Below, in pieces: positions 252 through 13,631 of a DNA stretch of 64,000 bases. The DNA is taken from the NCBI GenBank assembly GCA_038850515.1, contig JAWCLV010000002.1, positions 1,966-65,965 of the forward strand, given 5' to 3'. Made by a program: the position numbers and the translations under genes. The DNA is from Candidatus Bathyarchaeia archaeon (GTDB lineage: Archaea > Thermoproteota > CALKCG01 > B24 > JAGTQN01). Under the pieces are notes generated by a model that saw only the letters and a list, made by a program, of their open reading frames with translations, was not told where the DNA came from and did no database searches. Positions within the stretch are counted from its first letter, which is position 1. Every line of letters starts with the position of its first letter.

Positions 252-1337
252 TTGATATTCAGGAGAAGTTCTCTGCGAAAGTACTGGCCTACCCTGTATG
301 AGGTTACAAAGGCTTGCGCCTCCGCTATGAATATTCCCGCCATCCTAAACCTTGTCGTTAGGGAAGTTACGGAAGCCATGAACATAAAGGCTTCATCCAT
401 ACACCTTCTAGATCCTAAGGAAAAAAGCTTGGAGCTTGCAGCCGCCTACGGGCTCAGCGACGATTTTCTTAAAAAGGTCTCAATTTTTCTAGAGAAAAGC
501 CCATTTGATCAGGAAGCCTTACAAGGTAAGCCCATAACCCTTCGAGAAGCCTTCAAAGAACCTAGGATTCCTTACCGAGATGCCTTAGAGAAGGAGGGAA
601 TAGCATCGATGGTCATAGTCCCTCTAATGGTTAGGGATAAAGCCATAGGAATTTTGAAGGCCTATACTTCCGTTCCTAGGAACTTCAGCCCTGCCGAATT
701 GGAGTTTCTCATAGCCCTCGCCGACATCTCTGCAGCTACCATAGAGAACGCAAGGCTAAACCAGAGCCTTCAGAAGCGTTGCAACGATCTTAACACCCTT
801 CTCAACGTCGTAAAAGCCATAGCATCGAGCTTTGGAACACCCGATGTCCTGAATGTGATCGCTAAAAGTGCCGTCGAGGTTTTGGGGGTGAAGGCATGCT
901 CCATAAGGCTTTACGACGAAAAAACGGGGCTCCTTAACCTAGCAGCCGCCTACGGGCTCAGCGACGAATACTTGAAGAAAGGTCCAGTAACGATCGAGAA
1001 GAGTCTCATCGATAAAGAAGCCTTACAAGGTAAGCCCATAGCCATACCTGACTTTGCCAGCGATCCGAGAGTTCAGTATAGAGAAGAGGCGAGAAAGGAA
1101 GGAATAGCCTCCGTCCTCTGCGTTCCACTTCCCTTCAAGGATAAAATGATCGGCACGATAAGGGTATACACGAGCCTTCCCCATGAGTTCACTGAGGAAG
1201 AGCTTTCCCTCCTCACCATGTTCGCAGCCCATGCCGCCATAGTCATACAGAACACAAAGCTTTATCAGATGGTTCTAAGGAACTGGCAGAAGCTTGTGGA
1301 TGAGGTTTTAGAGAAATGGCCCATTCTAACGGGCTGA
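252..1337 (+). CDS. tandem GAF-domain protein with no recognisable output domain
   Basis: 361-aa ORF with two homologous halves (LELAAAYGLSDDFLKK...EALQGKPI / LNLAAAYGLSDEYLKK...EALQGKPI, each followed by GIASxxxVPL...IGxxxxYT), which is the GAF pattern. Confidence 0.7.
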   Translation: MIFRRSSLRKYWPTLYEVTKACASAMNIPAILNLVVREVTEAMNIKASSIHLLDPKEKSLELAAAYGLSDDFLKKVSIFLEKSPFDQEALQGKPITLREAFKEPRIPYRDALEKEGIASMVIVPLMVRDKAIGILKAYTSVPRNFSPAELEFLIALADISAATIENARLNQSLQKRCNDLNTLLNVVKAIASSFGTPDVLNVIAKSAVEVLGVKACSIRLYDEKTGLLNLAAAYGLSDEYLKKGPVTIEKSLIDKEALQGKPIAIPDFASDPRVQYREEARKEGIASVLCVPLPFKDKMIGTIRVYTSLPHEFTEEELSLLTMFAAHAAIVIQNTKLYQMVLRNWQKLVDEVLEKWPILTG

Positions 1338-1382: not shown

Positions 1383-1925
1383 TTGGCAAAATCCCTCCTC
1401 AAGACGGATGAAAAAGAGGATTATGTCCTTAAGGTTGTAGAGGATGCGCTAAAGAGATATGGATCCAGAAGGGAAAACCTCATTGCCATCCTACAGGAAC
1501 TTCAGGGAAGTCTTGGATACCTTCCTATGAAAGGCATGAAAGCCGTAGCCGAGATGCTTCGAATCCCCCTATCCCAAGTCTACGGCGTCGCCACCTTCTT
1601 CCACCAGTTCAGATTGAACCAAAGGGGGAGGCACATGATTTTAATATGTATGGGAACGGCTTGCCACTTGAGGGGAGCGAACCAGAACTATGAGGCCCTA
1701 AGGAATTTCCTAAGGCTTAGGGATGATGAGGACACGACGGATGATGGAGAATTTACCCTCCTTAAGGTGCGTTGCATGGGAGCCTGTAGCCTAGCCCCCA
1801 TTATGAGGATAGATGATGCCATCTATGGAAGGGTAACCGTATCGGATATCATCAGAATCCTAAACGCCCTAAGAAGGGAAGGAAAGAAATCGGAGGATGT
1901 GGAAGGGAAAGAAGGTAAGGGATGA
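1383..1925 (+). CDS. NuoE/HoxE-like thioredoxin-fold [2Fe-2S] subunit of an NAD(P)H diaphorase
   Basis: 180-aa ORF with a TTG start. Cys pattern ICMGTAC...CMGAC is typical of the NuoE 24-kDa family. Lies directly upstream of the NuoF-like gene. Confidence 0.8.
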   Translation: MAKSLLKTDEKEDYVLKVVEDALKRYGSRRENLIAILQELQGSLGYLPMKGMKAVAEMLRIPLSQVYGVATFFHQFRLNQRGRHMILICMGTACHLRGANQNYEALRNFLRLRDDEDTTDDGEFTLLKVRCMGACSLAPIMRIDDAIYGRVTVSDIIRILNALRREGKKSEDVEGKEGKG

Positions 1926-1959
1926 AGAACAGGTGGGAGGGGAGTAAGCCTTCAACCTT

Positions 1960-3918
1960 ATGGATAAATGCTGCGATAAGTGTACTCACAGTATCGATAC
2001 GCCTTGTGCTGATTTCATCCTATGCCGAACTAGGGGCCCTATGCCTTGGTGCCATCAATCCGATCGATGCGCAGAGGAAAGGAGAAAGGCGATCGATCTT
2101 CTCCTTTATGGAGAAGGTAACAGGAAGATCTCACTGGGAATGGGAACATGCGGGCAAGCTTCGGGGGCACGAGAGGTCTATAAAGCGATAGTTGAGGAGG
2201 TTGCCAAACTTGGCTTAAGGTCAAGCATTATCCAAACGGGCTGTATGGGTATGTGCTATGCGGAACCCCTCCTTGAGCTTTCTGAAAAAGGCTATCCAAA
2301 CGCTTTGTACGCCAACATGAAGCCAGAATCCGTTCCAAAGATCCTAAGGGATTATTTTTTCGAAAGGGATGTATCAGGAGCCTTCGCCCTAAGGTTCAAA
2401 ACGGGTGTAACCAAGGGAGAGGAGGCTATCCCTCTTTTCGAAGAGCTTCCCTTCAACAAAGGAAGCATAAGGATCGTTACGAAGAAATGCGGTCTCGTCG
2501 ATCCAAGTTCTATAGAGAGCTACATCGCCTACGGAGGCTATCTGGGCTTAACGAAGGCGCTTCGTAAGATGTCGCCAGAGCAGGTTATCGAGGAAATGAA
2601 GGCTTCTGGGCTTAGGGGGAGAGGTGGAGCTGGCTTTCCGACGCATCTAAAGTGGATGATATGCAGACAAGCGATAGGGGATAAGAAATATATGGTCTGT
2701 AACGCGGATGAGGGGGATCCCGGAGCCTTCATGAATCGCATGCTTGCTGAGGGGGATCCCCATAGCATCCTAGAGGGTATGATCATAGCAGCCTATGCCA
2801 TAGGGGCTAGTGAGGGCTACATCTTCGTTAGAGCGGAGAAGCCCCTCATGGCTGAAAGGTTTAGAAAAGCCGTCGAGCAAGCCAAGAAATTCGGATTGCT
2901 TGGCAAGAACATTCTAAAGTCAGGCTTCAGCTTCGATGTTACGGTTATCCTAAGTGCAGGAGCCTTCGTTTGTGGTGAAGAGACAGCCATGATATCGACC
3001 ATCGAGGGTGGAAGGGCCATGCCTAGGGTTCGTCCTCCCTTTCCTGCTACCAAGGGACTTTTCGGGAAGCCAACAACGATAAACAACGTCGAAACCCTAG
3101 CCCACGTCGTCCGAATCATCCAAGATGGAGCCTCCGAATTCGCAAAGGTTGGATCTGAAAGGAGTAAAGGAACAAAAGTCTTCTGCCTTACTGGAAAAGT
3201 TGTGAGGACTGGAGCCGTAGAAGTTCCCTTGGGGACTCCGATTAGAAAGCTCATCTTTGAGATCGGGGGAGGGATTCAAGGAGGAAAAAGGTTTAAAGCC
3301 ATCCAGACAGGGGGACCCTCTGGCGGTTGCCTTTCTGAGAAGTTCCTCGATCTACCTTTGGATTATGAGACCCTCCAAAGTGCAGGTTCCATCATGGGAA
3401 GCGGAGGGCTCGTAGCTATGGATGAGGAAGCCTGTGCCGTCGATGTAGCAAGGTACTTTCTAACCTTCACAACGGCGGAATCTTGTGGCAAGTGCTCCCC
3501 ATGTCGAATCGGCCTTAGGCTTATGCTGGACATTTTGACCAGGATAACTTCAGGCGAAGGGAGGGAAGAGGATCTCGATAGGCTCGTAGAGTTAAGCAAT
3601 ACCATTCGGGATACGTCCCTATGCGCCCTTGGGCAGGGTGCCCCAAATCCCGTCCTCACAACCCTGAACTACTTCAGAGACGAGTATGAGGCCCATGTAA
3701 AGGAGAAGCGATGTCCAGCTGGCGTCTGTACAAAGCTATTAAACTTTTCCATAGATCAGGAAGCCTGTAAAGGTTGCGGGCTTTGCTACAGGTCCTGTCC
3801 TTCCTCAGCCATTCAACAAATTGGGGGGACTAGAAAGTACGCTATCGATGCTTCAAAATGCCTTCGATGCGGGCTATGCTTCACCCTATGCTCCTTCGGA
3901 GCCATCAGAAAGGGCTAG
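1960..3918 (+). CDS. NuoF/HoxF-like FMN- and NAD(P)H-binding subunit with C-terminal 2x[4Fe-4S] ferredoxin domain
   Basis: 652 aa. Contains the GLRGRGGAGFPT motif, ESCGKCSPCR (N3 cluster), and C-terminal CKGCGLCYRSCP and CLRCGLCFTLC. Also has an N-terminal Cys-rich extension and a thioredoxin-like segment. Confidence 0.9.
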   Translation: MDKCCDKCTHSIDTPCADFILCRTRGPMPWCHQSDRCAEERRKAIDLLLYGEGNRKISLGMGTCGQASGAREVYKAIVEEVAKLGLRSSIIQTGCMGMCYAEPLLELSEKGYPNALYANMKPESVPKILRDYFFERDVSGAFALRFKTGVTKGEEAIPLFEELPFNKGSIRIVTKKCGLVDPSSIESYIAYGGYLGLTKALRKMSPEQVIEEMKASGLRGRGGAGFPTHLKWMICRQAIGDKKYMVCNADEGDPGAFMNRMLAEGDPHSILEGMIIAAYAIGASEGYIFVRAEKPLMAERFRKAVEQAKKFGLLGKNILKSGFSFDVTVILSAGAFVCGEETAMISTIEGGRAMPRVRPPFPATKGLFGKPTTINNVETLAHVVRIIQDGASEFAKVGSERSKGTKVFCLTGKVVRTGAVEVPLGTPIRKLIFEIGGGIQGGKRFKAIQTGGPSGGCLSEKFLDLPLDYETLQSAGSIMGSGGLVAMDEEACAVDVARYFLTFTTAESCGKCSPCRIGLRLMLDILTRITSGEGREEDLDRLVELSNTIRDTSLCALGQGAPNPVLTTLNYFRDEYEAHVKEKRCPAGVCTKLLNFSIDQEACKGCGLCYRSCPSSAIQQIGGTRKYAIDASKCLRCGLCFTLCSFGAIRKG

Positions 3919-3938
3919 TCCTTATGGGAGGTTAAATA

Positions 3939-4619
3939 ATGGTAAAGGTTGTAATAGACGGCTCCCAGGTCGAAGTGGTAGAGGGCTCCACTATCCTTGA
4001 GGCTGCAGAAAAGGCTGGAGCCAAGGTTCCAACCCTTTGCTACTTGAAGGGAATATACTCTGGCGCCGTTTGCCGCATATGCTCCGTCGAGGTGAAAGGT
4101 CTTCCTAGGCTTGTTCCAGCCTGTGCCTATCCCGTAGCGGAGAACATGGTCGTTAGTACGGACTCCAGAAGGGTTAGGGAAGCCAGAAGGATGATCCTAG
4201 AGATGATTTTGGCAACCCATAAACAAGACTGCCAGAGCTGCTCCTTAAAGGGTGGGGATTGTAAGCTTCTGGAACTGGCTGCCGAATATTGGCTTCAAGG
4301 CTTTTCCGTCTGCAATGAATGTCGATTCGTAGGTAAGGACTGTCTTCTGGAGAAGGGAGAACTCTGCCTTGGGCCCATAACCCTCGGGGGCTGCAGAGCC
4401 ATCTGTACTGCATCCGGTTATACGTGCGAGGGTTGTAGGGGCCCCCTCCTCGACATAGAGTTTGGGCTTTCAACCCTTCGTAAGTATGGTATCGATTGGC
4501 GGGAGGTCCTTAGGAGGCTCGGGAAGTATTCTTTGACTTCCGAGAGATTCCGAAAGGCTAAGGAACGAATCGAGGCTGAAGCTAATCTTCCCAGGGAAAG
4601 GGTAACGATCGAAAGATAG
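3939..4619 (+). CDS. fusion: HoxU/[FeFe]-hydrogenase F-domain N-terminus (2Fe-2S plus His-ligated 4Fe-4S) joined to the C-terminal FeS-binding half of a group-3 [NiFe] small subunit
   Basis: 226 aa. The N-terminus (VVIDGSQVEV...LCYL...CRICSVEV...AC, then HKQDCQSCSLKGGDC) matches the NuoG/HoxU/CpI N-terminus. The C-terminus (CLLEKGELCLGPITLGGCRAICTASGYTCEGCRGP) matches the C-terminal motif of MvhG/HydD-type small subunits. Confidence 0.75.
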   Translation: MVKVVIDGSQVEVVEGSTILEAAEKAGAKVPTLCYLKGIYSGAVCRICSVEVKGLPRLVPACAYPVAENMVVSTDSRRVREARRMILEMILATHKQDCQSCSLKGGDCKLLELAAEYWLQGFSVCNECRFVGKDCLLEKGELCLGPITLGGCRAICTASGYTCEGCRGPLLDIEFGLSTLRKYGIDWREVLRRLGKYSLTSERFRKAKERIEAEANLPRERVTIER

Positions 4620-4685
4620 GCGAAGAGGGGAGGCGATAAGAACGAAAACAGAAGGGGAGAACAGGAGAAGTGGAGAAGGAAGAGG

Positions 4686-6074
4686 ATGGAAGAGAAAGGA
4701 AGAAGGGTATGGGATGGGCTGGAAAAGGGAAGGGAGGAGAATGCCTTGAAGGTTCTTGAAATTTCTCCTATGGAAAGGATTGTGGGTCATACGAGACTTT
4801 TTGTTGAACTTGACGACGGGATTGTCAAGGAAGCGCGCTTCGAGATTCCAGAGGATGCTAGGTTTTTCGAAGCCTTCCTCGTCGGAAGGCGTTATGAAGA
4901 GGTCCCTGAGATCACTTCGAGGATCTGCGGGACTTGCAATGTAAACCATAGGATTGCAGCCCTAAGGGCGATAGAAAAAGCCCTCGGCATCGAGAATTCG
5001 AGGCAGACGGAGATGCTTAGGGAATTGGCGATATGTGGATCGAACCTTCAGAGTACAGCCCTCCATTTCTTCTTCCTAGCCCTTCCTGATTACCTTGGCT
5101 TTCGGAATACCTTGGAAATGGCTTCGAAGTGTCCTGAAGAAATCGCTAGGGGATTCAGACTAAAAAGCCTTGGGAATCTTATCGTTGAAGCCATAGCCGG
5201 AAGGGCCATCCATACTATAGCCATGGTTGTGGGAGGATTCACCTCCTATCCGTCGAGGGGGAGGCTTATAGGACTCACGAAAGCCCTTAAAGAGGCTGAG
5301 GGGGACTTCTTAAAAGCCCTTGAATTGGCTACTAGCCTAGAGTTTCCAAGGGCAAAGGGCTTCAACCAGACGCATATGTGTATAAAGGGTGATGGCGATT
5401 ACGCCTATAATGGAGACTTCGTCCAAGTAAGCGATGGAAGGGTCTTTCGATCTGAAGAATACAGGAATTTCTTGGAAGAGTCTGTCGTTCCATACGCTTC
5501 GACTAAGAGGTATAAGGTAGGAGGCTCTTGTTTCTACGTAGGCTCTAGGGCAAGGTTTAACATAAACGGAAGCTTCCTAGGGGAAAGGGTAAAAAAAGCG
5601 ATAGGCTCCCTAAACCTGAACCTTAGGCCACGGTTAGACAGCCCCTTCGAAAACCTTCTTGCAAAGGCCATAGAACTTCTCCATTACTATGACAGGAGCC
5701 TTTCCATATTAGAAGAGCTTCTTGATAGGCGATATATCGATAATATGATCATCACGCCTACTAGAACTAAAGGCGAGGGTGTCGGATCGACGGAGGCTAC
5801 TAGGGGCCTCCTAATTCACGAGTATGAGATCGGCGAGGGCGGAAGGATCGATTATGCAAACATCATAACCCCCACCGCTATGAATTCGGGACATATAGAG
5901 GATAGCGTAAAGGTTCTAGTATCGCAGCTTTCGGGGGAAGGGAAGGCTCATGAGGACCTTAAGTTGGAGTTGGAGAAGCTCATCAGGACTTACGATCCCT
6001 GTATAAGCTGTGCAACCCATGCCATACAGGTAATTCTTTCAGAAGAAGGTAAAGAGGCGAATTCCCTTGGATGA
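4686..6074 (+). CDS. [NiFe]-hydrogenase large (catalytic) subunit, group-3-like
   Basis: N-terminal RICGTCNVNH (RxCGxCxxxH) and C-terminal DPCISCATHA (DPCxxCxxH) Ni-Fe ligand motifs. An alternative TTG start at 4746 sits behind GGGAGGAG and would give MKVLEISPMERIVGH. Confidence 0.9.
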   Translation: MEEKGRRVWDGLEKGREENALKVLEISPMERIVGHTRLFVELDDGIVKEARFEIPEDARFFEAFLVGRRYEEVPEITSRICGTCNVNHRIAALRAIEKALGIENSRQTEMLRELAICGSNLQSTALHFFFLALPDYLGFRNTLEMASKCPEEIARGFRLKSLGNLIVEAIAGRAIHTIAMVVGGFTSYPSRGRLIGLTKALKEAEGDFLKALELATSLEFPRAKGFNQTHMCIKGDGDYAYNGDFVQVSDGRVFRSEEYRNFLEESVVPYASTKRYKVGGSCFYVGSRARFNINGSFLGERVKKAIGSLNLNLRPRLDSPFENLLAKAIELLHYYDRSLSILEELLDRRYIDNMIITPTRTKGEGVGSTEATRGLLIHEYEIGEGGRIDYANIITPTAMNSGHIEDSVKVLVSQLSGEGKAHEDLKLELEKLIRTYDPCISCATHAIQVILSEEGKEANSLG

Positions 6075-7587
6075 GTCTCAAGAAATGGAAATGGAAAAGA
6101 AAAAAATTGCCTTTTTCCAGCTTGGGGATTGCGGAGGGGATGAGCTAGAGTTCCTAAACCTCGATGGAAGGGCGCTTGATCTCTTAAAAAGGGCTAAGCT
6201 CGTCCAATCAACCCTCCTTGGGTTAAAGGATGATGGTCCCTACGATATCGCCCTAGTTGAGGGAATTGTAGCCTCTGAAGAAGATCTAAAGAAAATTAAA
6301 GAGATAAGGGAGAAATCGAAGGTCCTCGTAGCCTTAGGTTCATGCGCCACCCTCGGTGGTCTTCCCGGACTGAAGCGGAATGCTAGCGATGAAGATATCC
6401 GAAGCATTTACGGAAACGTAAGGCTCAAGAATCCTCCTATCGATAACTTGGGTCCCTTGGACCTCTTCGTAAAGATTGACTATTACCTCCATGGCTGTCC
6501 CGTAGATAAGGAGGAACTCTTCAGCCTTCTAAAGGGAATCCTTGATGGCTTAGAGATAAGGCAGGGGGAAAAGCGCTTTCCCTTCCTTAAGGCTTCCCAG
6601 ATGGAGCTTCCTGGAAGCGTCATATCGCTTCTACAGGACAAATGCATCCTTTGCGGGCGATGTGTTGAGATATGCTCAAGGGTGGTTTCAGCCATAGGAA
6701 TGGTGAATAGGGGTTTTAATACGATGGTTTCGACTCCCTTCAAGCTAAACTTCGATGAATCCAGCTGCATATCCTGTGGCCTTTGTACGGTCTACTGTCC
6801 TGCTGCAGCCATAATAGCTAGGGACGATTCTAGGCATGTCGAGGAACTTCTAAAGTCCAAGTTGGAGAAGAAGGGAAAGGGGAAAGGAGGGGGGAGAGGA
6901 AGCGAAGAAAATGAAGGAAAGCTTTTGAAGGCCTTCGTTGAGGTTGAAGCCGCGGCAGCAATAGGGGAGGCTTTTGGGCTCGATGGAGTCCAAATGGGAA
7001 GGCTTGCTTCAGCCCTAAGGCTCCTAGGCTTCGATGATATAATCCTCGTTAGTTGGAAAGAAATGGTCCTGAGGCACGGAGCTTCTATTCAAAAAGAAGG
7101 GAGTCCAGCCATGCTAATTCCCTGCAGCGAGGCGGCTAAGAAGTTCGTCGAGATATCGTACCCCGAACTCTTAGGAATGATGACAGAAGTTCCGAAAATT
7201 AGAGTTGATGATCAAGGCGCCATCTGGATAGCTCCATGTACTTCAAAGAAGCTAGATGCTAGGATACCTATCGTAACGACAAGGGAAATTATCCGATTAA
7301 TCAGAAGCCGCATGGAGTTCAAGGAACTCGAGGAAGGAGGCTACAAAGTCCTTTCGGAAGGATTAGGAATTTCTGGAAGGGTCAGGATAGTCCAAGGAAT
7401 CCCTTCGATAAGGGAAGAGCTTGAGAAAATCCAAGGGGGAAGATATTCCATGGAAAGCTTAGCCCTTTTTGTTTGCCCTGAAGGCTGTGTGGGAGGTGGA
7501 GGTCAACCCCCCATAGACATCGACCGTTTGCCAGGAAGAAGATCCATCGCCTCAGAGCTTGAAGCCCTTTCTGTAAAGGCTCTTTAA
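6067..7587 (+). CDS. fusion: [NiFe] small-subunit N-terminal (NuoB-like) domain + 2x[4Fe-4S] ferredoxin + truncated [FeFe]-hydrogenase H-domain-like module
   Basis: 506 aa. FFQLGDCGGDE, LGSCATLGG and HGCPV (small-subunit proximal-cluster motifs). CILCGRCVEIC and CISCGLCTVYCP (ferredoxin). ALRLLGFDDI, LIPCSEAAKKFVEISYPELL, APCTSKKLDA, TTREIIRLI and FVCPEGCVGGGGQP (H-domain P1/P2/P3 positions). ATG codons at 6085 and 6091 are alternative starts. Confidence 0.85.
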   Translation: MDESQEMEMEKKKIAFFQLGDCGGDELEFLNLDGRALDLLKRAKLVQSTLLGLKDDGPYDIALVEGIVASEEDLKKIKEIREKSKVLVALGSCATLGGLPGLKRNASDEDIRSIYGNVRLKNPPIDNLGPLDLFVKIDYYLHGCPVDKEELFSLLKGILDGLEIRQGEKRFPFLKASQMELPGSVISLLQDKCILCGRCVEICSRVVSAIGMVNRGFNTMVSTPFKLNFDESSCISCGLCTVYCPAAAIIARDDSRHVEELLKSKLEKKGKGKGGGRGSEENEGKLLKAFVEVEAAAAIGEAFGLDGVQMGRLASALRLLGFDDIILVSWKEMVLRHGASIQKEGSPAMLIPCSEAAKKFVEISYPELLGMMTEVPKIRVDDQGAIWIAPCTSKKLDARIPIVTTREIIRLIRSRMEFKELEEGGYKVLSEGLGISGRVRIVQGIPSIREELEKIQGGRYSMESLALFVCPEGCVGGGGQPPIDIDRLPGRRSIASELEALSVKAL

Positions 7588-8093
7588 TCAGGAAGGTTTC
7601 CTATCGATAGCTCATCAAAGACCATCTTTATGAGACCTGGGATGGTCCTTCTGACCTTTTCGCTCAAGGAAGCATGAAATCCCTCCAAATTCTCAACCTC
7701 GGCGCCAAGGATAATGACTTCCTTAGGAAATTCCTCACCCATTATCTTCTTGCAAAGAAGGAGGAGATCGATGGAATGAAGGCTATGGACCGATAAAGGC
7801 GTTGGAAGCTTCGAAAGGGTCTCTAGTTCGTTAAGCCTAAACTTCAACAAAGATGCCTTCTGATCACCAGTCTTCAAGGCATCTATTACGATGACCTTCT
7901 CCGCTCCCTTAAGAATCGATGGTAGATTCGTTCTTAAGGGATCCGCATCGTAAACCTTAACATTCTTTGGAAGTTTGATCCTTCGAATTTGCTTCAGAAC
8001 CTCTGGCCCCAATCCATCGTCAGATGCCAAAGGATTTCCAAATCCCAGCACAACTATACGCTTCGCCTTCATTTCCTCTCCCTGCGGCCTCAT
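7584..8093 (-). CDS. hydrogenase maturation endopeptidase (HycI/HoxW/FrhD family)
   Basis: 169 aa. RIVVLGFGNPLASDDGLGPEV is the family signature. Convergent with the hydrogenase operon, overlapping it by 4 nt. Confidence 0.8.
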   Translation of the reverse strand: MRPQGEEMKAKRIVVLGFGNPLASDDGLGPEVLKQIRRIKLPKNVKVYDADPLRTNLPSILKGAEKVIVIDALKTGDQKASLLKFRLNELETLSKLPTPLSVHSLHSIDLLLLCKKIMGEEFPKEVIILGAEVENLEGFHASLSEKVRRTIPGLIKMVFDELSIGNLPD

Positions 8094-8224
8094 AAGCCGG
8101 CTTTCTTATAGAGCTTCCCGTTATCATATCGCTATAAGTCTTCAATTTTAAAGGAAAATCGAGAAAGTCTTAAGATGCAACGTAATAGCATCTTTCAATA
8201 AAAAAGAAATTGGAGGAAAGATTC

Positions 8225-8692
8225 ATGGGGGAAGGTGCATCCAATGATCTAAGGAGGCTATATCCCAAGCATCCTTTCGTCGGCGTAGGCGCCGTTGTCC
8301 AGTATGGCGATAGGGTCCTCCTCATCCGAAGGGCGAATGAGCCTGGAAAGGGACTCTGGTCCATACCTGGGGGGCTAGTTGAGCTGGGCGAAACAGTTAG
8401 GGAGGCGGCAAAGAGAGAGGTTGAGGAGGAAACGGGTGTTTTAGTGGAAATAGGAGAGCTTATCGATGTTATCGACAATATCATTCGGGACGAATCAGGA
8501 GCCGTGAAGTTCCACTATGTCCTTGTCGACTTTCTGGCAAAACCCCTTTCCAAGGAGTCCATGCCCATCATTCGTCCATCTTCCGAAGTCCTAGAGGCGG
8601 GCTGGTTCTTGCCTGAGGAGCTTTCGAAGCTTTCCATGACTAGGACTGCACGGAGGCTCTTAGAAAAACTTGATCTTTTTCGAAGGGTCTGA
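8225..8692 (+). CDS. NUDIX hydrolase
   Basis: Nudix box GGLVELGETVREAAKREVEEETG. ATG at 8225 lies 8 nt after GGAGG (8212-8216). The ORF track extends the frame back to 8210. Confidence 0.8.
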   Translation: MGEGASNDLRRLYPKHPFVGVGAVVQYGDRVLLIRRANEPGKGLWSIPGGLVELGETVREAAKREVEEETGVLVEIGELIDVIDNIIRDESGAVKFHYVLVDFLAKPLSKESMPIIRPSSEVLEAGWFLPEELSKLSMTRTARRLLEKLDLFRRV

Positions 8693-8742
8693 AAGTATGG
8701 ACCTTGAAAGATTAATAAATTTGGAAGTTTTTCTTTGCCTCT

Positions 8743-9561
8743 ATGCACGAGATCCTTTCGACTAGAAGCCTTTGCCCGGGCATCAAGCTTTTTGAAGTCT
8801 CAGCACCCCTTGTGGCTAGGAAGGCTGAGGCCGGAGAGTTCGTCATTATAAGGGTTGACGATAAAGGCGAGCGTATTCCCCTTACGATCGTAGACTGGTC
8901 TAGGCATCGGGGAAGCATTGCAATCGTTTTCCAAGAAATTGGAAGGTCTACTAAGAAGCTTGGAAGGCTGAAGGCTGGTGAAAAGATCCTAAACCTTGTA
9001 GGACCCCTAGGAAAACCCATCGAGAAGAGACTTTATGGCACAACGATCTGCGTAGCTGGTGGTGTTGGAATCGGAGCCATTTACCCTATCGCTAGGGCTC
9101 TAAAGGCTTCGAGAAACAGGGTCGTAACGATCATAGGGGCGAGGAGCAAGGAACTCCTTTTCTTTGAGGAAGAACTTCGATCTGTAAGCGATGAGCTTTA
9201 CGTAGCCACGGATGATGGATCCAAGGGAACGAAGGGCTTCGTAACGGATGTTTTGAAGAATTTGCTTCAAAGCCTTCGAACGGACATGGTTTATTCGGTT
9301 GGCCCTGTTTTGATGATGAAGGCAGTTGCGGAGGTAACGAGGCCCTACGGCATAAAAACGATCGCAAGCCTCAATCCCATTATGATCGATGGAACCGGTA
9401 TGTGTGGCTGTTGCCGGGTGATCGTAGGTGGAAGGATGATGTTTACCTGCGTTGATGGTCCAGACTTTGATGCCCATGAGGTCGATTTCGAGAATCTCTT
9501 GGCTAGAAATAGGCGATTCCTTGAGGAGGAAGCCCTGGCTCTGAAAAAAGATCTTGTTTGA
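8743..9561 (+). CDS. NfnA/SudB-like ferredoxin-NADP reductase-type subunit (FAD/NAD binding, C-terminal 2Fe-2S)
   Basis: 272 aa. Architecture like the PyrK/sulfide dehydrogenase beta subunit, with C-terminal DGTGMCGCCRV...FTCVDGP. Adjacent to a GltD-like gene. Confidence 0.75.
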   Translation: MHEILSTRSLCPGIKLFEVSAPLVARKAEAGEFVIIRVDDKGERIPLTIVDWSRHRGSIAIVFQEIGRSTKKLGRLKAGEKILNLVGPLGKPIEKRLYGTTICVAGGVGIGAIYPIARALKASRNRVVTIIGARSKELLFFEEELRSVSDELYVATDDGSKGTKGFVTDVLKNLLQSLRTDMVYSVGPVLMMKAVAEVTRPYGIKTIASLNPIMIDGTGMCGCCRVIVGGRMMFTCVDGPDFDAHEVDFENLLARNRRFLEEEALALKKDLV

Positions 9562-9579
9562 GGCAAGGGTCGATGAAGA

Positions 9580-11001
9580 ATGGCATCGAATAGAGGCCTT
9601 GAAAAAAGGATGCCCTTTCCCGAGCGCGATCCTAAGGAAAGGATTCGGGACTTTGGGGAGGTTGCCTTAGGCTTCAAAGCCGAGGATGCCATTAAAGAGG
9701 CCCAAAGATGCCTTGAATGTAAAAGATCGCCCACCTCGAAGATATGCATCGATGGCTGCCCTGTGGAGATAGATATCCCTAGTTTTATCAAGGCTATAAA
9801 GAAGGGGGATTTCGAAGAAGCAATACGCATCATAAAAGATCGAAACAGCCTACCGGCCGTATGTGGTAGGGTATGTCCTTGGGAAAAGCAGTGTGAAGCC
9901 TTCTGTACGCTAGGTAGGCGTTGGGAGCCCGTCTCCATTGGAAGGCTAGAACGCTTTGTGGCAGACTTGGAGCACCAAAGGGGCCTTCAGATTCCAGAAC
10001 TTCCACCAAGAAATGGGAAGAAGGTAGCGATCGTGGGATCAGGACCAGCCGGGCTTACGGCGGCTGCTGAGCTTGCAAAGATTGGCTATGAGGTTACAAT
10101 ATTTGAGGCCCTTCATGCGCCCGGAGGCGTCCTTCTTTATGGCATACCTGAGTTCAGGCTTCCCAAGGTCATCGTTGAGGCGGAAGTCGAATACATAAGG
10201 AGGCTTGGAGTCAACATCCTCACAGATATCGTCATTGGAAAAACCCTTACCCTCGATGAGCTATTAGCGGATTTTAATGCAGTCTTCATAGCCACAGGGG
10301 CTGGGCTCCCCCAATGGCTCGGCATATCAGGCGAGAGCCTTAACGGCGTTTACTCAGCCAATGAATTCCTAACAAGGGTCAACCTCATGAAAGCCTATCG
10401 ATTTCCCGATTACGATACTCCAATAAAGGTAGGAAGGGTTGTCGTTACGATAGGAGGGGGTAATGTCGCCATGGACTGCGCTAGGACGGCTTTAAGACTC
10501 GGGGTCGAAAAATCGATTGTAGTCTACAGAAGATCGGAGAAGGAAATGCCTGCGAGGGGTGAGGAGGTTGAAAGGGCGAAAGCTGAAGGGGTCGAATTCC
10601 TTTTTTTGACAAATCCCAAGAGGTTCCTAGGGGATGAGAAAGGATGGGTTAGGAAAGTCGAATGCCTTCGTATGGAGCTTGGGGAGCCTGATGCCTCAGG
10701 TAGGCGCAGACCAATAGCCAAGCCCGGCTCAGAATTCCTTATCGATGCGGACACGGTTATCATAGCCATAGGACAGGCTCCCAACCCCCTTATTCCAAGG
10801 ACCACAGAGGGCCTTAAGACGCGGGAAGATGGAACTATCCTTGTGGATACCCAAGGGAGGACATCGAAGCCAGGGGTCTTTGCAGGAGGGGATATAACCA
10901 CTGGCGATGCGACCGTTGTAGAAGCCATAGGAGCCGGGAGAAGGGTTGCAAAGGAAATCCATCGCTACTTAAGCCTCAAGGAGCCTTGGCCAAGGCTTTA
11001 A
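9580..11001 (+). CDS. NfnB/SudA/GltD-like NAD(P)H-dependent oxidoreductase (glutamate synthase small-subunit family)
   Basis: 473 aa. N-terminal Cys clusters (CLEC...CPVEIDIP, CGRVCP...C), GSGPAGL dinucleotide fold, and a second GGGNVAMDCA fold. Confidence 0.85.
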   Translation: MASNRGLEKRMPFPERDPKERIRDFGEVALGFKAEDAIKEAQRCLECKRSPTSKICIDGCPVEIDIPSFIKAIKKGDFEEAIRIIKDRNSLPAVCGRVCPWEKQCEAFCTLGRRWEPVSIGRLERFVADLEHQRGLQIPELPPRNGKKVAIVGSGPAGLTAAAELAKIGYEVTIFEALHAPGGVLLYGIPEFRLPKVIVEAEVEYIRRLGVNILTDIVIGKTLTLDELLADFNAVFIATGAGLPQWLGISGESLNGVYSANEFLTRVNLMKAYRFPDYDTPIKVGRVVVTIGGGNVAMDCARTALRLGVEKSIVVYRRSEKEMPARGEEVERAKAEGVEFLFLTNPKRFLGDEKGWVRKVECLRMELGEPDASGRRRPIAKPGSEFLIDADTVIIAIGQAPNPLIPRTTEGLKTREDGTILVDTQGRTSKPGVFAGGDITTGDATVVEAIGAGRRVAKEIHRYLSLKEPWPRL

Positions 11002-11293: not shown

Positions 11294-11917
11294 ATGCGTC
11301 CCAATACCGTGAAAGGCTGGGAAAGGGCTACAGGCTTGATAAGAAAGCAAGCACCTTTGAAGGAGCGCATTGCCCACTCTTTGTATCGCCTGAAGGTTCA
11401 GCAGAATAGGCTAGAGGGAGCCGCCATGCGTATGCAACAACACGACAGAAACCTCTTTGAAAAGTGCGTAGCAGCCCAGGCTTCAAGGGACTCTTCTAGA
11501 GCAGCCATGTATGCCAACGAATGTGCCGAGGTTAGGAAGATGCAGAAGATCATCCTCAGGGCAGCCCTCGCCCTAGAACAGGTAATCCTCAGGCTTGAAA
11601 GTGTCCAAGAGTTTGGAGATGTCGTGGTTGCCATGGCCCCTGTAGCTGGCGTCGTTCGATCCCTCCAGAGCCAGCTATCGGGCGTCATACCAGAGGTTTC
11701 CTACGAGCTTGGAAGGATAGGAGAAGACTTGGGCAAGATAGTCATCGAGTTCGGAGAGACGACTGGCACGGGATGGGAAATTGAGGCAACAGGCGAGGCC
11801 CAGAGGATCCTTGAGGAGGCTTCAGCCATAGCGGAGCAGAAGATGAGGGAGCGCTTCCCAGAGATACCAGCCGTCATGGAGCCTACCGAGAAAGTTGGAG
11901 AGGCTATGAAAAAGTAG
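11294..11917 (+). CDS. cdvB: ESCRT-III (Snf7-like) CdvB paralog without winged-helix tail
   Basis: 207 aa. Aligns along its length with the downstream CdvB (YANECAEVRKM, LRLESVQEFGDV, GVIPEV, ILEEASAIAEQKMRERFPEIP). Confidence 0.85.
   Translation: MRPNTVKGWERATGLIRKQAPLKERIAHSLYRLKVQQNRLEGAAMRMQQHDRNLFEKCVAAQASRDSSRAAMYANECAEVRKMQKIILRAALALEQVILRLESVQEFGDVVVAMAPVAGVVRSLQSQLSGVIPEVSYELGRIGEDLGKIVIEFGETTGTGWEIEATGEAQRILEEASAIAEQKMRERFPEIPAVMEPTEKVGEAMKK
11810..11868 (+). repeat. 59-nt patch, identical at 57/59 positions to 13266-13324 (between the two cdvB paralogs)
   Basis: CTTGAGGAGGCTTCAGCCATAGCGGAGCAGAAGAT(G/A)A(G/A)GGAGCGCTTCCCAGAGATACC occurs in both genes, while the rest of the two genes has diverged at the DNA level. 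Confidence 0.8.
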
Positions 11918-11928
11918 GGTAGGTTAAA

Positions 11929-12699: not shown

Positions 12700-12728
12700 A
12701 GGCTTCTGGGCTTCTAGGAGGGGGTTCC

Positions 12729-13562: not shown

Positions 13563-13631
13563 TAGAATAGATGTAAGCCCTAACGCCTCGAACAGCCCTA
13601 GAAGAAGATCAAAGCGGAGTGATGATGGAGG

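What the first reader, a model, noticed from the sequence alone, without database searches (positions are those of the whole stretch)
1383..11001. Complete candidate electron-confurcating module: NuoE/NuoF diaphorase, hybrid hydrogenase, maturation protease and NfnAB-like pair in one block
The block contains these elements in order:
- NuoE-like gene (1383)
- NuoF-like gene (1960)
- the three hydrogenase ORFs
- a convergent endopeptidase (7584-8093)
- a NUDIX gene
- an NfnA/SudB-like plus NfnB/GltD-like pair (8743-11001)

A tandem-GAF protein gene (252-1337) lies immediately upstream.

The NuoF-like protein has an unusual N-terminal extension with 7 Cys and 2 His in its first ~37 residues (MDKCCDKCTHSIDTPCADFILCRTRGPMPWCHQSDRC). 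This precedes the thioredoxin-like and FMN domains.

The combination resembles HydABC-type bifurcating [FeFe] hydrogenases and HoxEFU diaphorases, but here it is wired to a [NiFe] catalytic subunit. NAD(P)H/ferredoxin coupling is an inference from the domain content only.
Basis: inference. Interest (0 to 1): 0.65.

Follow-up and report, generated by a model that had tools for sequence, protein, structure and literature searches.

The report
Archaeal hybrid bifurcating hydrogenase operon
This stretch of a Bathyarchaeia genome encodes a five-subunit hydrogenase, of a type first described in 2024, that joins a nickel-iron enzyme to a shrunken iron-iron enzyme on an NADH/ferredoxin-splitting core; an ordinary, separate NfnAB transhydrogenase lies next to it, so this is a clear example of a known system rather than a new one.

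Summary

- **Hydrogenase operon (1383-7587).** It has five genes: hydC (NuoE-like), hydB (NuoF-like), hydD, hyhL and a hyhS::hydA fusion. This is the "group F [FeFe] / group 3f [NiFe] hybrid hydrogenase" of Greening et al. 2024 (Cell). HydB and HydC are closest to solved electron-bifurcating (Bfu) enzymes, best of all Acetomicrobium mobile NiFe-HydABCSL, not to complex I or Hox.
- **Conservation.** The five-gene core recurs in eight other archaeal lineages.
- **Protease.** The convergent HycI-type protease recurs in three lineages.
- **GAF, NUDIX and NfnAB genes.** These accompany the core only in one close relative. NfnAB is a canonical NfnSL transhydrogenase, separated from the operon by an opposite-strand gene. 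It is a neighbour, not a subunit.
- **HydB extension.** The Cys/His-rich N-terminal extension is real and invariant, but it is already catalogued (NCBIfam NF040902), and one carrier sits beside a formate-dehydrogenase-like subunit.
- **Other observations.**
  - The [NiFe] small subunit and HydA are each split and reciprocally fused.
  - This lineage keeps a Cys-Ser L1 motif that most short-type relatives have lost.
  - The H-like domain lacks large parts of a canonical H-domain, so whether it holds an H-cluster is open.

Verdict: new member of a known kind.

The parts
252..1337 (+). Tandem-GAF protein with no output domain. It is a possible lineage-specific sensor or regulator, 45 nt upstream of hydC.
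   Evidence: GAF_2 E 2.8e-38, two stretches. A GAF gene sits at the same position only in the close relative L081 and is absent from the other hybrid loci.
1383..1925 (+). hydC: NuoE-like thioredoxin-fold [2Fe-2S] subunit of the Bfu core.
   Evidence: PF01257 E 1.4e-44. The best PDB hit is A. mobile NiFe-HydC 7t2r_C at 5.6e-39, followed by NfnC and the HydC subunits of T. maritima, T. kivui and A. woodii, all above complex I NuoE. NuoE and HoxE equivalogs score below their cut-offs.
1960..3918 (+). hydB: NuoF-like FMN/NAD(H) subunit carrying the Bfu-type extras.
   Evidence: The best PDB hit is 7t2r_B at E 2.6e-218 over residues 61-651, and all top hits are bifurcating B subunits. C492, H579, C585 and C590 (B2 site) and two CxxCxxCxxxC motifs are invariant. 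TIGR01959 nuoF scores 487, below its cut-off of 559.
1960..2097 (+). CCxxC prefix domain of HydB (residues 1-46; 7 Cys and 2 His). It probably binds metal or an Fe-S cluster, but its function is untested.
   Evidence: NCBIfam NF040902 at 55 bits against a cut-off of 45. All nine Cys/His are invariant in 7 orthologues. The strict motif is found in 102 of the 120 nearest HydB clusters. No PDB chain covers it. One carrier is followed by a 914-aa NuoG-like molybdopterin (formate-dehydrogenase-like) subunit (L090).
3939..4619 (+). hydD: a four-cluster conduit. Residues 1-120 are the N-terminal [2Fe-2S] plus His-ligated [4Fe-4S] module of HydA/NuoG. Residues about 123-210 are the C-terminal half (medial and distal clusters) of a group 3b [NiFe] small subunit.
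   Evidence: FeFe_hydrog_A6 matches residues 2-123 and sulfhydrogenase delta matches residues 120-208. A. woodii HydA1 7q4v_A residues 7-119 align with HydD 5-118. The 3b delta subunit in L088, residues 163-253, aligns with HydD 123-210 at E 2e-12. Fifteen Cys and one His are invariant, enough for four clusters.
4686..6074 (+). hyhL: [NiFe] large (catalytic) subunit, close to group 3b. A 17-residue tail after His445 is the likely protease substrate.
   Evidence: Best PDB hits are the T. kodakarensis and P. furiosus 3b alpha subunits (5yxy 8.2e-74; 9nez), with A. mobile HydL at 6.1e-46. RIC81GxC84xxxH88 and DPC439xxC442xxH445 are invariant in 8 orthologues.
6067..7587 (+). hyhS::hydA fusion. 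Residues 9-161 are the N-terminal half (proximal cluster) of the [NiFe] small subunit. Residues about 186-250 are a 2x[4Fe-4S] F-domain. A Lys/Gly-rich linker follows. Residues about 265-506 are a reduced H-cluster-like domain.
   Evidence: Oxidored_q6, Fer4 and Fe_hyd_lg_C hits. The L088 3b delta subunit residues 1-154 align with residues 9-161 at E 7e-29. T. kivui HydA1 8a6t_A residues 143-512 align with residues 190-486. hhalign against group A HydA gives E 7e-56. The AF2 H-like domain has pLDDT 70-92, and the top Foldseek hits are [FeFe] hydrogenases at E 3e-12.
7123..7128 (+). L1-motif dipeptide Cys353-Ser354 of the H-like domain.
   Evidence: It aligns with the C-S of 'TSCSP' in A. woodii HydA1 and with the C-C of 'TSCCP'. 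Among short-type fusions, Cys occurs at L1 only in the window, P0002 (both C-S) and P0125 (C-C). Ser354 is conserved in the others.
7237..7251 (+). L2 motif Cys391...Lys395 (equivalent to MPCxxK).
   Evidence: C391 is present in every full-length fusion. Lys is present in most.
7474..7506 (+). L3 motif C470-PEG-C474-VGGGGQP.
   Evidence: C470 and C474 are present in every full-length fusion. GGGQ is kept in most.
7584..8093 (-). HycI/HyaD-type [NiFe] maturation endopeptidase, convergent with the operon and overlapping its end by 4 nt.
   Evidence: TIGR00072 at 103 bits against a cut-off of 47. The same convergent arrangement occurs in L081 and in the Aigarchaeota locus L091.
8210..8692 (+). 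NUDIX hydrolase, 50 nt upstream of nfnA. Substrate unknown.
   Evidence: PF00293 E 1.4e-24, with sub-threshold hits to NAD+ diphosphatase and NadM-Nudix models. It is syntenic only in L081.
8743..9561 (+). nfnA / NfnS: small subunit (FAD plus [2Fe-2S]) of the NADH-dependent ferredoxin:NADP+ oxidoreductase.
   Evidence: NF004862 at 383 bits against a cut-off of 220. P. furiosus NfnI small subunit 5jca_S scores 1.6e-97 and T. maritima NfnA 4ylf_A 1.4e-74.
9580..11001 (+). nfnB / NfnL: GltD-like large subunit (two [4Fe-4S] plus FAD, the bifurcating flavin in solved homologues).
   Evidence: TIGR01316 at 616 bits against a cut-off of 472. T. maritima NfnB 4ylf_B scores 1.4e-172 and P. furiosus NfnI-L 5jca_L 1.7e-169.

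Best explanation
**What it is.** Window 1383-7587 is a five-gene operon of a Bathyarchaeia archaeon. It encodes a Bfu-family (HydABC-type) flavin-based electron-bifurcating/confurcating hydrogenase of the published hybrid group F [FeFe] / group 3f [NiFe] kind.

**Proposed mechanism (inferred from solved homologues).**
1. H2 is split, or made, at the [NiFe] site of HyhL.
2. Electrons pass to the proximal cluster in the N-terminal half of the fusion protein.
3. They then cross the medial and distal clusters, which here sit on the C-terminal half of HydD.
4. They continue through HydD's His-ligated [4Fe-4S] and [2Fe-2S] clusters to the FMN of HydB.
5. At that FMN, together with the HydB/HydC cluster constellation, one electron pair is shared between NAD+ and ferredoxin. 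The reverse reaction gives confurcation.

**The H-like domain.** The F-clusters and the reduced H-like domain of the fusion protein form a second arm that feeds the same junction. I take the [NiFe] site to be the main catalytic site. I take the H-like domain to be more likely an accessory Fe-S, low-activity or regulatory site than a full second hydrogenase.

**Neighbouring genes.**
- The convergent HycI-type protease matures HyhL.
- NUDIX-nfnA-nfnB is a separate transcription unit encoding an ordinary NfnSL transhydrogenase. It shares the NADH and ferredoxin pools with the hydrogenase but is not part of the complex.
- The GAF protein is a lineage-specific candidate regulator.

**Shown:** gene content, domain homology, conserved ligands and synteny. 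**Inferred:** complex formation, bifurcation, the direction of electron flow and operon boundaries.
For: **Domains and motifs**
- Domain and family assignments.
- All four [NiFe] Cys are invariant, and HyhL has a cleavable tail.

**Match to published and solved systems**
- Identical five-gene architecture and naming in Greening et al. 2024 (PMC11216029 section 10).
- HydB and HydC are closest to solved bifurcating enzymes.
- The Bfu-specific features described for A. mobile are conserved.

**Fusion architecture**
- Split and fusion topology shown by pairwise alignments.
- Four-cluster HydD.

**Synteny and neighbours**
- The hydC-hydB-hydD-fusion core is conserved in L081, L082/83, L084/85, L086, L087, L088, L089 and L091; hyhL sits between hydD and the fusion in all of these except L089.
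- The convergent protease recurs in three lineages.
- NfnAB is a canonical NfnSL. It is adjacent only in the window and L081, and lies downstream of an opposite-strand gene.

**Organism**
- The protein identical to HydB is named Candidatus Bathyarchaeia by NCBI.
Against: - There are no transcript, protein or activity data. Bifurcation rests on homology to solved enzymes only.
- The H-like domain keeps the L2 and L3 cysteines, Lys395, GGGQP and an A. woodii-like Cys-Ser L1. A relative of the other subtype made H2 after artificial maturation. The domain may therefore be a true second active site, contrary to my lean.
- No ferredoxin gene and no Hyp or HydEFG genes lie in the 64-kb window.
- The function of the invariant CCxxC prefix is unknown and is not included in the electron path above.
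- The AF2 model of the N-terminal half is of low confidence, so cluster distances were not checked.
Confidence: 0.8

Rival explanations
1. Both metal sites are working hydrogenases, giving a true two-site 'redox valve'. The reduced H-like domain binds a full H-cluster and evolves H2 when NADH and reduced ferredoxin accumulate. The [NiFe] site oxidises H2 otherwise, as Greening et al. favour.
For: - The L2 and L3 cysteines, Lys395 and GGGQP are conserved.
- The window's L1 Cys353-Ser354 matches the C-S of active A. woodii HydA1.
- The domain models confidently, and the best structural matches of the model are [FeFe] hydrogenases.
- The Th1 fusion from Thermoplasmata made H2 after [2Fe]adt addition.
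- The window lineage, together with P0125, branches basally within the short type and retains the L1 Cys.
Against: - The position next to Pro, which is the [4Fe-4S]H ligand in TSCCP enzymes (PMC12138974), is Ser here.
- The domain lacks the 'GAxxIFGxTGGVMEAALR' and 'CKSPQQ' segments that are conserved in the aligned group A HydA sequences.
- Sixteen of the 19 short-type clusters have no Cys at L1 at all, and some have degraded GGGQ. Selection in this clade is therefore not on H-cluster chemistry.
- The tested Th1 and Th2 proteins come from Thermoplasmata. They probably represent the other (W-C) subtype, though their sequences could not be checked here.
- No HydEFG genes lie in the window.
Confidence: 0.3
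2. One reading: all ten genes form a single integrated confurcating module, with NfnAB as the NADP(H)/ferredoxin-coupling arm of the hydrogenase.
For: - The genes are adjacent in the window and in L081.
- GltD-like modules are recurrent partners of Bfu cores. NfnABC 9n5u_A and the formate-dehydrogenase-type chains 9bov_A and 8oh5_C match the window's NfnB.
- By established reaction stoichiometries, a bifurcating hydrogenase plus Nfn sums to 2 H2 + 2 NADP+ -> 2 NADPH + 2 H+ with no net NAD or ferredoxin change (inference).
Against: - The protease gene on the opposite strand separates the two units.
- An A/T-rich box, TTAATAAAT, lies about 25-30 nt upstream of nfnA.
- NfnA and NfnB are closest to stand-alone NfnSL enzymes, not to Bfu-fused GltD domains (1.4e-172 against 3.7e-106).
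- Eight other lineages with the same hydrogenase core have no Nfn nearby.
- The one locus that shares Nfn also shares the unrelated Cdv genes, so the adjacency is simply inherited gene order.
- Against: independent transcripts and separate native complexes.
Confidence: 0.08
3. A non-bifurcating NAD(P)-linked soluble hydrogenase, similar to Hox/SH or to sulfhydrogenase, that uses the NuoEF-like pair merely as a diaphorase.
For: - The best NCBIfam hit for the NuoE-like protein is HoxE, and HoxU also matches HydD.
- HyhL is closest to group 3b sulfhydrogenases.
Against: - HoxE and HoxU score far below their cut-offs (152 against 224; 108 against 333).
- HydB has the N-terminal Trx-like domain, the B2 Cys3His site and the C-terminal 2x[4Fe-4S] domain. 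The A. mobile structure paper reports these as unique to bifurcating enzymes and absent from Hox, formate dehydrogenase and complex I.
- All top PDB hits are bifurcating enzymes.
Confidence: 0.07

Closest known systems
Hybrid group F [FeFe] / group 3f [NiFe] hydrogenase of uncultivated archaea (Greening et al. 2024, Cell 187:3357; PMC11216029)
   Same: - It has the same five contiguous genes: hydC, hydB, hydD (a four-cluster conduit), hyhL and a fusion of HyhS (N-terminal) with the HydA H-domain (C-terminal).
- It occurs in the same host range; Bathyarchaeia are listed.
- It is predicted to have the same bifurcating/confurcating role.
- hyaD and hyp genes are listed among the annotated neighbours of archaeal [FeFe] hydrogenase loci (Figure S2 legend).
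   Different: - The window belongs to a short (427-506 aa) 'x-S' subtype. There the canonical L1 ligand Cys is Ser and the H-like domain spans only about 240 residues.
- The long (563-580 aa) members of the other, 'W-C', subtype keep the ligand Cys but have Trp (Phe in one cluster) at the proton-relay position. I presume the Thermoplasmata proteins tested in that paper belong to this subtype.
- The paper's supplementary tables are not held, so I could not check whether this exact locus is among its 21 genomes.
- Nfn is not mentioned anywhere in that paper's text.
Acetomicrobium mobile NiFe-HydABCSL electron-bifurcating hydrogenase (PDB 7t2r/7t30; Feng et al. 2022, PMC8880783)
   Same: - It gives the best solved match for HydB (E 2.6e-218) and HydC (5.6e-39).
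- It is a HydABC-type core wired to a [NiFe] module.
- Its HydA C-terminal domain has the H-domain fold but carries only an Fe-S cluster. This is a precedent for a non-catalytic H-like domain.
   Different: - There, HydA is one 692-aa chain without H-cluster motifs, and HydS is a separate 179-aa single-cluster subunit.
- Here, HydA and the small subunit are each split and cross-fused, the L2 and L3 motifs are retained, and the medial and distal clusters are present.
- HyhL here is closer to group 3b (8e-74) than to A. mobile HydL (6e-46).
- It is bacterial, and its HydB has no CCxxC prefix.
[FeFe] HydABC bifurcating hydrogenases (T. maritima 7p5h, A. woodii 7q4v, T. kivui 8a6t)
   Same: - The HydB and HydC architecture is the same.
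- The N-terminal module, F-clusters and H-domain of HydA all align with HydD plus the fusion protein.
- The A. woodii-type 'C-S' L1 dipeptide is shared.
   Different: - They have no [NiFe] module.
- Their HydA is a single chain with a complete H-domain of roughly 350 residues or more.
Group 3b [NiFe] sulfhydrogenase (P. furiosus SHI 9nez; T. kodakarensis 5yxy)
   Same: It is the closest solved relative of HyhL and of both halves of the small subunit.
   Different: The beta and gamma (HydB/HydG-type) diaphorase subunits are replaced by a Bfu core, and the small subunit is split between two polypeptides.
NfnAB / NfnSL transhydrogenase (T. maritima 4ylf; P. furiosus NfnI 5jca)
   Same: Both subunits match over their full length, score above the curated cut-offs, and are encoded by adjacent genes.
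   Different: Nothing notable was found. The only particular point is the position next to the hydrogenase, downstream of a NUDIX gene.

Membership tests
Hybrid group F [FeFe]/3f [NiFe] hydrogenase (Greening 2024) | One polypeptide with an N-terminal group 3 [NiFe] small-subunit domain and a C-terminal [FeFe] H-domain | tested here: met
   Oxidored_q6 covers residues 22-155 and Fe_hyd_lg_C covers 296-478. hhalign to group A HydA gives E 7e-56. The top Foldseek hits are [FeFe] hydrogenases plus SHI delta.
Hybrid group F [FeFe]/3f [NiFe] hydrogenase (Greening 2024) | Contiguous hyhL, hydB, hydC and a four-cluster hydD | tested here: met
   The same core recurs in eight further lineages, with hyhL displaced in L089.
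Hybrid group F [FeFe]/3f [NiFe] hydrogenase (Greening 2024) | Conserved cysteines able to ligate the H-cluster | tested here: inconclusive
   C391 (L2), C470 and C474 (L3) are present. L1 reads C353-S354: Cys sits at the proton-relay position and Ser at the canonical ligand position. This is the pattern of A. woodii HydA1. Most clade members have no L1 Cys.
Hybrid group F [FeFe]/3f [NiFe] hydrogenase (Greening 2024) | Phylogenetic placement within the published group F clade | not tested
   The published sequences (Table S2) are not held. My own NJ tree shows that all fusions are monophyletic (99/100) and fall into two subtypes.
Hybrid group F [FeFe]/3f [NiFe] hydrogenase (Greening 2024) | H2 evolution attributable to an H-cluster after [2Fe]adt maturation | not testable with these tools
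   This needs heterologous expression.
Bfu (HydABC-type) electron-bifurcating flavoenzymes | NuoF-like subunit with an FMN/NAD(H) site and the N3-type [4Fe-4S] cluster | tested here: met
   Complex1_51K E 1.1e-44 and NADH_4Fe-4S E 8e-34.
Bfu (HydABC-type) electron-bifurcating flavoenzymes | B2 site (Cys3His; read as [2Fe-2S] or Zn) between the core and the C-terminal domain | tested here: met
   C492, H579, C585 and C590 are invariant. The segments that contain them align with the corresponding segments of A. mobile HydB. The site is described in PMC8880783.
Bfu (HydABC-type) electron-bifurcating flavoenzymes | C-terminal 2x[4Fe-4S] ferredoxin domain on HydB (B3 and B4) | tested here: met
   Fer4 hits cover residues 597-649, and eight Cys are invariant.
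Bfu (HydABC-type) electron-bifurcating flavoenzymes | N-terminal thioredoxin-like cluster domain on HydB | tested here: inconclusive
   The Pfam hit is weak (17 bits, below the cut-off). However, residues 61 onward align with 7t2r_B, and C64, C95 and C99 are invariant. A fourth ligand was not identified.
Bfu (HydABC-type) electron-bifurcating flavoenzymes | Coupled reduction of NAD+ and ferredoxin | not testable with these tools
   This needs a biochemical assay.
A. mobile-type NiFe-HydABCSL | Single-chain HydA lacking H-cluster motifs, plus a free single-cluster HydS | tested here: not met
   The L2 and L3 motifs are present. HydA and HyhS are split and cross-fused, and the medial and distal clusters are retained.
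Respiratory complex I NuoE/NuoF | Score above the NCBIfam equivalog cut-offs, and complex I genes as neighbours | tested here: not met
   TIGR01959 scores 487 against 559 and TIGR01958 scores 125 against 142. No nuo membrane genes are nearby. Bfu chains outrank complex I in the PDB search.
HoxEFUYH (group 3d) bidirectional hydrogenase | HoxE and HoxU equivalog scores, and a 3d-type HoxH/HoxY pair | tested here: not met
   HoxE scores 152 against 224 and HoxU 108 against 333. The large subunit is closest to group 3b.
NfnAB/NfnSL transhydrogenase | PyrK-like FAD/[2Fe-2S] small subunit next to a GltD-like 2x[4Fe-4S]/FAD large subunit | tested here: met
   NF004862 scores 383 against 220 and TIGR01316 scores 616 against 472. 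The top PDB hits are 4ylf and 5jca.
NfnAB/NfnSL transhydrogenase | NADH- and ferredoxin-dependent NADP+ reduction | not testable with these tools
   This needs a biochemical assay.
NuoF_pre_CCxxC domain (NCBIfam NF040902) | Score above the curated cut-off | tested here: met
   55 bits against 45, covering residues 1-46.
[NiFe] hydrogenase maturation endopeptidase (HycI/HyaD) | TIGR00072 score above its cut-off, and a large subunit with a C-terminal extension nearby | tested here: met
   103 bits against 47. HyhL has a tail after H445.

The most novel reading that the evidence does not exclude
**Evolutionary series.** The fused hydrogenases form two subtypes, and the short 'x-S' subtype records stepwise decay of the [FeFe] site.
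- P0125 still has Cys-Cys at L1.
- The window lineage has Cys-Ser.
- The crown of the clade (Sulfolobales, Desulfurococcales, Asgard, Aigarchaeota and other Bathyarchaeia) has no L1 cysteine.

**Implication.** If this reading is right, most archaeal 'hybrids' of this subtype are functionally NiFe-only Bfu hydrogenases carrying a fossil H-domain, like the A. mobile A5 site. This Bathyarchaeial enzyme would be one of the few short forms that might still run two H2 sites.

**In this lineage.** The enzyme is paired in the genome with NfnSL. Together the two give a net, uncoupled H2:NADP+ route.
Probability: 0.3. Interest if true: 0.55.

Novelty: new member of a known kind. Interest (0 to 1): 0.3.

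Why it matters
The physiological role of archaeal hybrid hydrogenases is openly unresolved: why put two hydrogenases in one complex? This window does not add a new kind of system. It does offer a complete, well-contextualised Bathyarchaeial example and three testable points.

1. **Cross-fused architecture.** The [NiFe] small subunit and HydA are each cut once and cross-fused around hyhL. This fixes the cluster order of both electron arms.
2. **Motif variation.** L1-motif variation separates fusions that could bind an H-cluster from those that probably cannot. This lineage sits at the transition.
3. **Adjacent NfnSL.** Its position suggests how H2, NADH, ferredoxin and NADPH pools may be linked in this organism.

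None of these changes the classification. They would help in choosing which hybrid to express and test.

Tried and rejected
**Searches that gave little**
- A search with the 77-residue HydB N-terminus alone found nothing, because the word index needs three shared 5-mers. I used the full-length HydB search plus a regular expression instead.
- The genome-contig scan was swamped by generic Fe-S patterns. Only L001 and L002 were true fusions, and the window's own genome was not recovered.
- The sigma-70 promoter and intrinsic-terminator scan gave counts at or below shuffle expectation and does not apply to archaea. Operon boundaries therefore rest on strand, spacing and synteny.
- The supplementary tables of Greening et al. 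are not held. I could neither check whether this locus is among their 21 genomes nor use their group F sequences.

**Technical limits**
- The first bootstrap script timed out. I re-ran it with a numpy distance routine. The tree is a simple NJ tree, with support of only 52/100 for the x-S clade and 71/100 for the window+P0002+P0125 group.
- The AF2 model has pLDDT below 50 over most of residues 1-250. I used it only for the fold of the H-like domain, not for cluster geometry.

**Interpretations considered and rejected**
- Respiratory complex I NuoEF: scores below the equivalog cut-offs, no nuo neighbours.
- Hox/3d hydrogenase: scores below the equivalog cut-offs, and the large subunit is closest to group 3b.
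- Strict membership of the A. mobile NiFe-HydABCSL type: H-cluster motifs are present and the subunits are split and fused.
- I also considered that Ser354 alone proves loss of the H-cluster. I rejected this because the same C-S dipeptide is the majority state in bacterial group A HydA, including active A. woodii HydA1.

**Rest of the window**
- No hyp, hydEFG or ferredoxin genes were found among the twenty larger ORFs scanned outside the block, between 17.4 and 63.8 kb.

Full report
**Observation.**
- 252-1337: tandem GAF protein.
- 1383-1925: NuoE-like thioredoxin-fold [2Fe-2S] protein.
- 1960-3918: 652-aa NuoF-like protein.
- 3939-4619, 4686-6074 and 6067-7587: the three hydrogenase ORFs.
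- 7584-8093, minus strand: a convergent HycI-type endopeptidase.
- 8210-8692: a NUDIX gene.
- 8743-9561 and 9580-11001: an NfnA-like/NfnB-like pair.

The first 37 residues of the NuoF-like protein hold 7 Cys and 2 His, as stated. A protein 100% identical to it is named 'Candidatus Bathyarchaeia archaeon' by NCBI. The downstream genes are syntenic with the CdvA and Vps4 genes of a relative. This fits a Thermoproteota/Bathyarchaeia host.

**The hydrogenase genes are chimeras.**
- *HydD (226 aa).* Residues 2-123 match the N-terminus of group A6 [FeFe] HydA and of NuoG. Residues 120-208 match the C-terminal part of group 3b sulfhydrogenase delta, which is the [NiFe] small subunit.
- *The 506-aa protein.* It begins with the N-terminal part of that same small subunit. 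It continues with a 2x[4Fe-4S] domain and ends in an 'iron-only hydrogenase large subunit C-terminal' domain.
- *Direct alignments make the topology explicit.*
  - An ordinary 3b small subunit (L088) aligns by residues 1-154 with residues 9-161 of the 506-aa protein (E 7e-29). It aligns by residues 163-253 with residues 123-210 of HydD (E 2e-12).
  - T. kivui HydA1 (8a6t_A) aligns by residues 3-128 with HydD and by residues 143-512 with the 506-aa protein.
- *Gene order.* The order is therefore [HydA-N | HyhS-C] - HyhL - [HyhS-N | HydA-C]. Each ancestral protein is cut once and the pieces are cross-fused around hyhL.
- *Clusters and [NiFe] ligands.* HydD carries fifteen invariant Cys and one invariant His, enough for four clusters. 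HyhL has all four [NiFe] cysteines invariant (RICGxCxxxH and DPCxxCxxH) and a tail after His445. It is closest to the group 3b enzymes of T. kodakarensis and P. furiosus (8.2e-74), ahead of A. mobile HydL (6.1e-46).

**This is a published system.** Greening et al. 2024 (PMC11216029, section 10) describe exactly this five-gene cluster: HydC, HydB, a four-cluster 'HydD' conduit, HyhL and a HyhS::HydA fusion.
- They report it in 21 archaeal genomes, Bathyarchaeia included.
- They name it group F [FeFe] / group 3f [NiFe].
- They predict a bifurcating/confurcating complex.
- They show that one Thermoplasmata fusion makes H2 after artificial maturation.
- They also cite the solved Acetomicrobium mobile NiFe-HydABCSL (PMC8880783).

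A HydABC-like diaphorase 'wired to a [NiFe] subunit' is therefore not new.

**The diaphorase is of the bifurcating type.**
- HydB's best solved match is A. mobile NiFe-HydB (E 2.6e-218, residues 61-651). It is followed only by other bifurcating B subunits before any complex I NuoF appears.
- HydC behaves the same way (7t2r_C, 5.6e-39).
- The NuoE, NuoF, HoxE and HoxU equivalog models all score below their curated cut-offs.
- HydB keeps the features that the A. mobile paper reports as unique to bifurcating enzymes. These are the Cys3His B2 site (C492, H579, C585, C590), the C-terminal 2x[4Fe-4S] domain and an N-terminal Trx-like domain.

**The N-terminal extension.**
- It matches NCBIfam NF040902 'CCxxC motif-containing NuoF prefix domain' above the cut-off.
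- All nine Cys/His are invariant in seven orthologues.
- The strict motif occurs in 102 of the 120 nearest HydB clusters.
- One carrier (L090) is followed by a 914-aa NuoG-like molybdopterin (formate-dehydrogenase-like) subunit rather than a hydrogenase.
- No solved structure covers it.
- It is real, conserved and functionally uncharacterised, but it is neither novel nor specific to this hydrogenase.

**Synteny.**
- The hydC-hydB-hydD-fusion core recurs in a close relative (L081), in two JGI contigs (L082/83), in Asgard (L084/85), in Sulfolobales and related archaea (L086, L087), in L088, in another Bathyarchaeia MAG (L089) and in Aigarchaeota (L091). hyhL lies between hydD and the fusion gene in all of them except L089, where the [NiFe] subunits lie further downstream.
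- The convergent protease is seen in the window, L081 and L091.
- The GAF, NUDIX and NfnAB genes accompany the core only in L081. That locus shares the whole neighbourhood, including the unrelated Cdv genes, so this adjacency is inherited gene order and not independent recurrence.
- Other lineages carry other neighbours. These include a 2-oxoacid dehydrogenase complex with NAD kinase (L086, L087), a 3b sulfhydrogenase (L088, L091) and Hyp genes (L084, L091).

**NfnAB.**
- The large subunit matches T. maritima NfnB (1.4e-172) and P. furiosus NfnI-L (1.7e-169).
- The small subunit matches P. furiosus NfnI-S (1.6e-97).
- Both pass the curated NCBIfam cut-offs.
- This is a canonical stand-alone NfnSL. 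It is separated from the hydrogenase operon by an opposite-strand gene. An A/T-rich box lies about 25-30 nt upstream of nfnA.
- From the established stoichiometries, the two enzymes would sum to 2 H2 + 2 NADP+ -> 2 NADPH + 2 H+. That is a plausible metabolic reason for the proximity, but it is inference.

**The H-like domain.**
- *How rare the fusions are.* An exhaustive profile search of 1.84 billion representatives found about 31 fusion clusters.
- *Two subtypes.*
  - In the 'W-C' type, which includes six long clusters of 563-580 aa, L1 reads (S/T)-W-C-P (Phe replaces Trp in one cluster). The canonical [4Fe-4S]H ligand Cys is kept and the proton-relay Cys is lost.
  - In the short type (427-506 aa), to which the window belongs, L1 reads (I/V)-P-x-S.
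  - Which residue is the ligand and which the relay follows PMC12138974.
- *Cys at L1 in the short type.* It occurs only in the window and P0002 (Cys-Ser) and in P0125 (Cys-Cys). In a simple NJ tree these three form the basal branch of the short type (71/100), and all fusions are monophyletic (99/100).
One carrier is the active, structurally solved A. woodii HydA1.
- *Missing segments.* All fusions lack the 'GAxxIFGxTGGVMEAALR' and 'CKSPQQ' segments that are conserved in the aligned group A sequences.
- *Fold.* The domain still models with pLDDT 70-92, and the structural neighbours of the model are [FeFe] hydrogenases (E about 3e-12).
- *Precedent.* A. mobile HydA provides a precedent for an H-domain fold that holds only an Fe-S cluster.
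- *My lean.* I consider the domain somewhat more likely to be an accessory or vestigial site than a full second hydrogenase. This is unresolved.

**Verdict.**
- It is wrong to fold NfnAB into one module.
- It is wrong about novelty.
- The locus is a new member, possibly of a distinguishable short subtype, of a kind described in 2024.

Noticed in passing
window 6130-6141 (fusion protein residues 22-25): The proximal-cluster motif reads C22-G-G-D25 in the window and in P0002. Every other fusion, and the ordinary 3b small subunit, has C-x-G-C. An Asp therefore replaces the second Cys ligand. From memory, Asp-ligated proximal clusters are known from F420-reducing hydrogenase.
   Followed up: partly
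window about 6853-6927 (fusion protein residues about 263-287): A Lys/Gly-rich low-complexity insert (KSKLEKKGKGKGGGRGSEENEGK) lies between the F-domain and the H-like domain. It is unique to the window protein and was modelled with low confidence. It is probably a flexible linker.
   Followed up: no
L089:6312-15929 (Bathyarchaeia GCA_038856355.1): This is a variant cluster. hydC, hydB, hydD and the fusion gene are contiguous, with no hyhL between hydD and the fusion. An 825-aa HdrA/FlpD-like protein and a separate [NiFe] small and large subunit follow. The fusion's L1 motif is IIPSSEAE, with no Cys.
   Followed up: partly
L090:5911-11770: A GcvH-like gene, hydC and a CCxxC-prefix hydB are followed by a 914-aa NuoG-like molybdopterin (formate-dehydrogenase-like) subunit. 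The prefix therefore also occurs next to what looks like a Bfu-type formate dehydrogenase. A GcvH-like gene also precedes hydC in L089.
   Followed up: no
L086:11552-17829 and L087:7147-13359: In Sulfolobales/Desulfurococcales-type loci, the hybrid operon is followed directly by a 2-oxoacid dehydrogenase complex (E1 alpha/beta, E2, E3), an NAD kinase and a lipoate ligase. This is an NADH-producing neighbour in place of Nfn.
   Followed up: no
L082:2297-3346, L083:2746-3795, L091:5440-6375: A MazE/AbrB-PhoU-domain gene lies divergently, immediately upstream of hydC, in two unrelated lineages. It is a recurrent candidate regulator. The window has the GAF-GAF protein at the corresponding position instead.
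   Followed up: no
P0136 (859 aa): This W-C-type fusion carries about 357 extra residues N-terminal to the small-subunit domain. Its composition was not examined.
   Followed up: no
window 11294-14786: A CdvB-like, CdvA-like, CdvB-like and Vps4/CdvC-like gene set (ESCRT-type cell division) lies immediately downstream of nfnB. It is syntenic with L081, where Pfam marks CdvA and Vps4_C.
   Followed up: partly
window 4686-4750: The hyhL ORF is about 20-27 codons longer at its 5' end than all seven orthologues. The true start is probably near 'LKVLEISPMERIVGH'. That would leave a gap of about 130 nt after hydD, where relatives have overlapping genes.
   Followed up: partly
bacterial group A HydA hits P0009-P0120 and PDB 7q4v_A: The L1 motif is TSCS[SP] (Ser at the position that ligates [4Fe-4S]H in TSCCP enzymes) in 93 of 136 motif-matched sequences, including active A. 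woodii HydA1. I found no discussion of how the cluster is ligated in these enzymes in the papers I read.
   Followed up: partly
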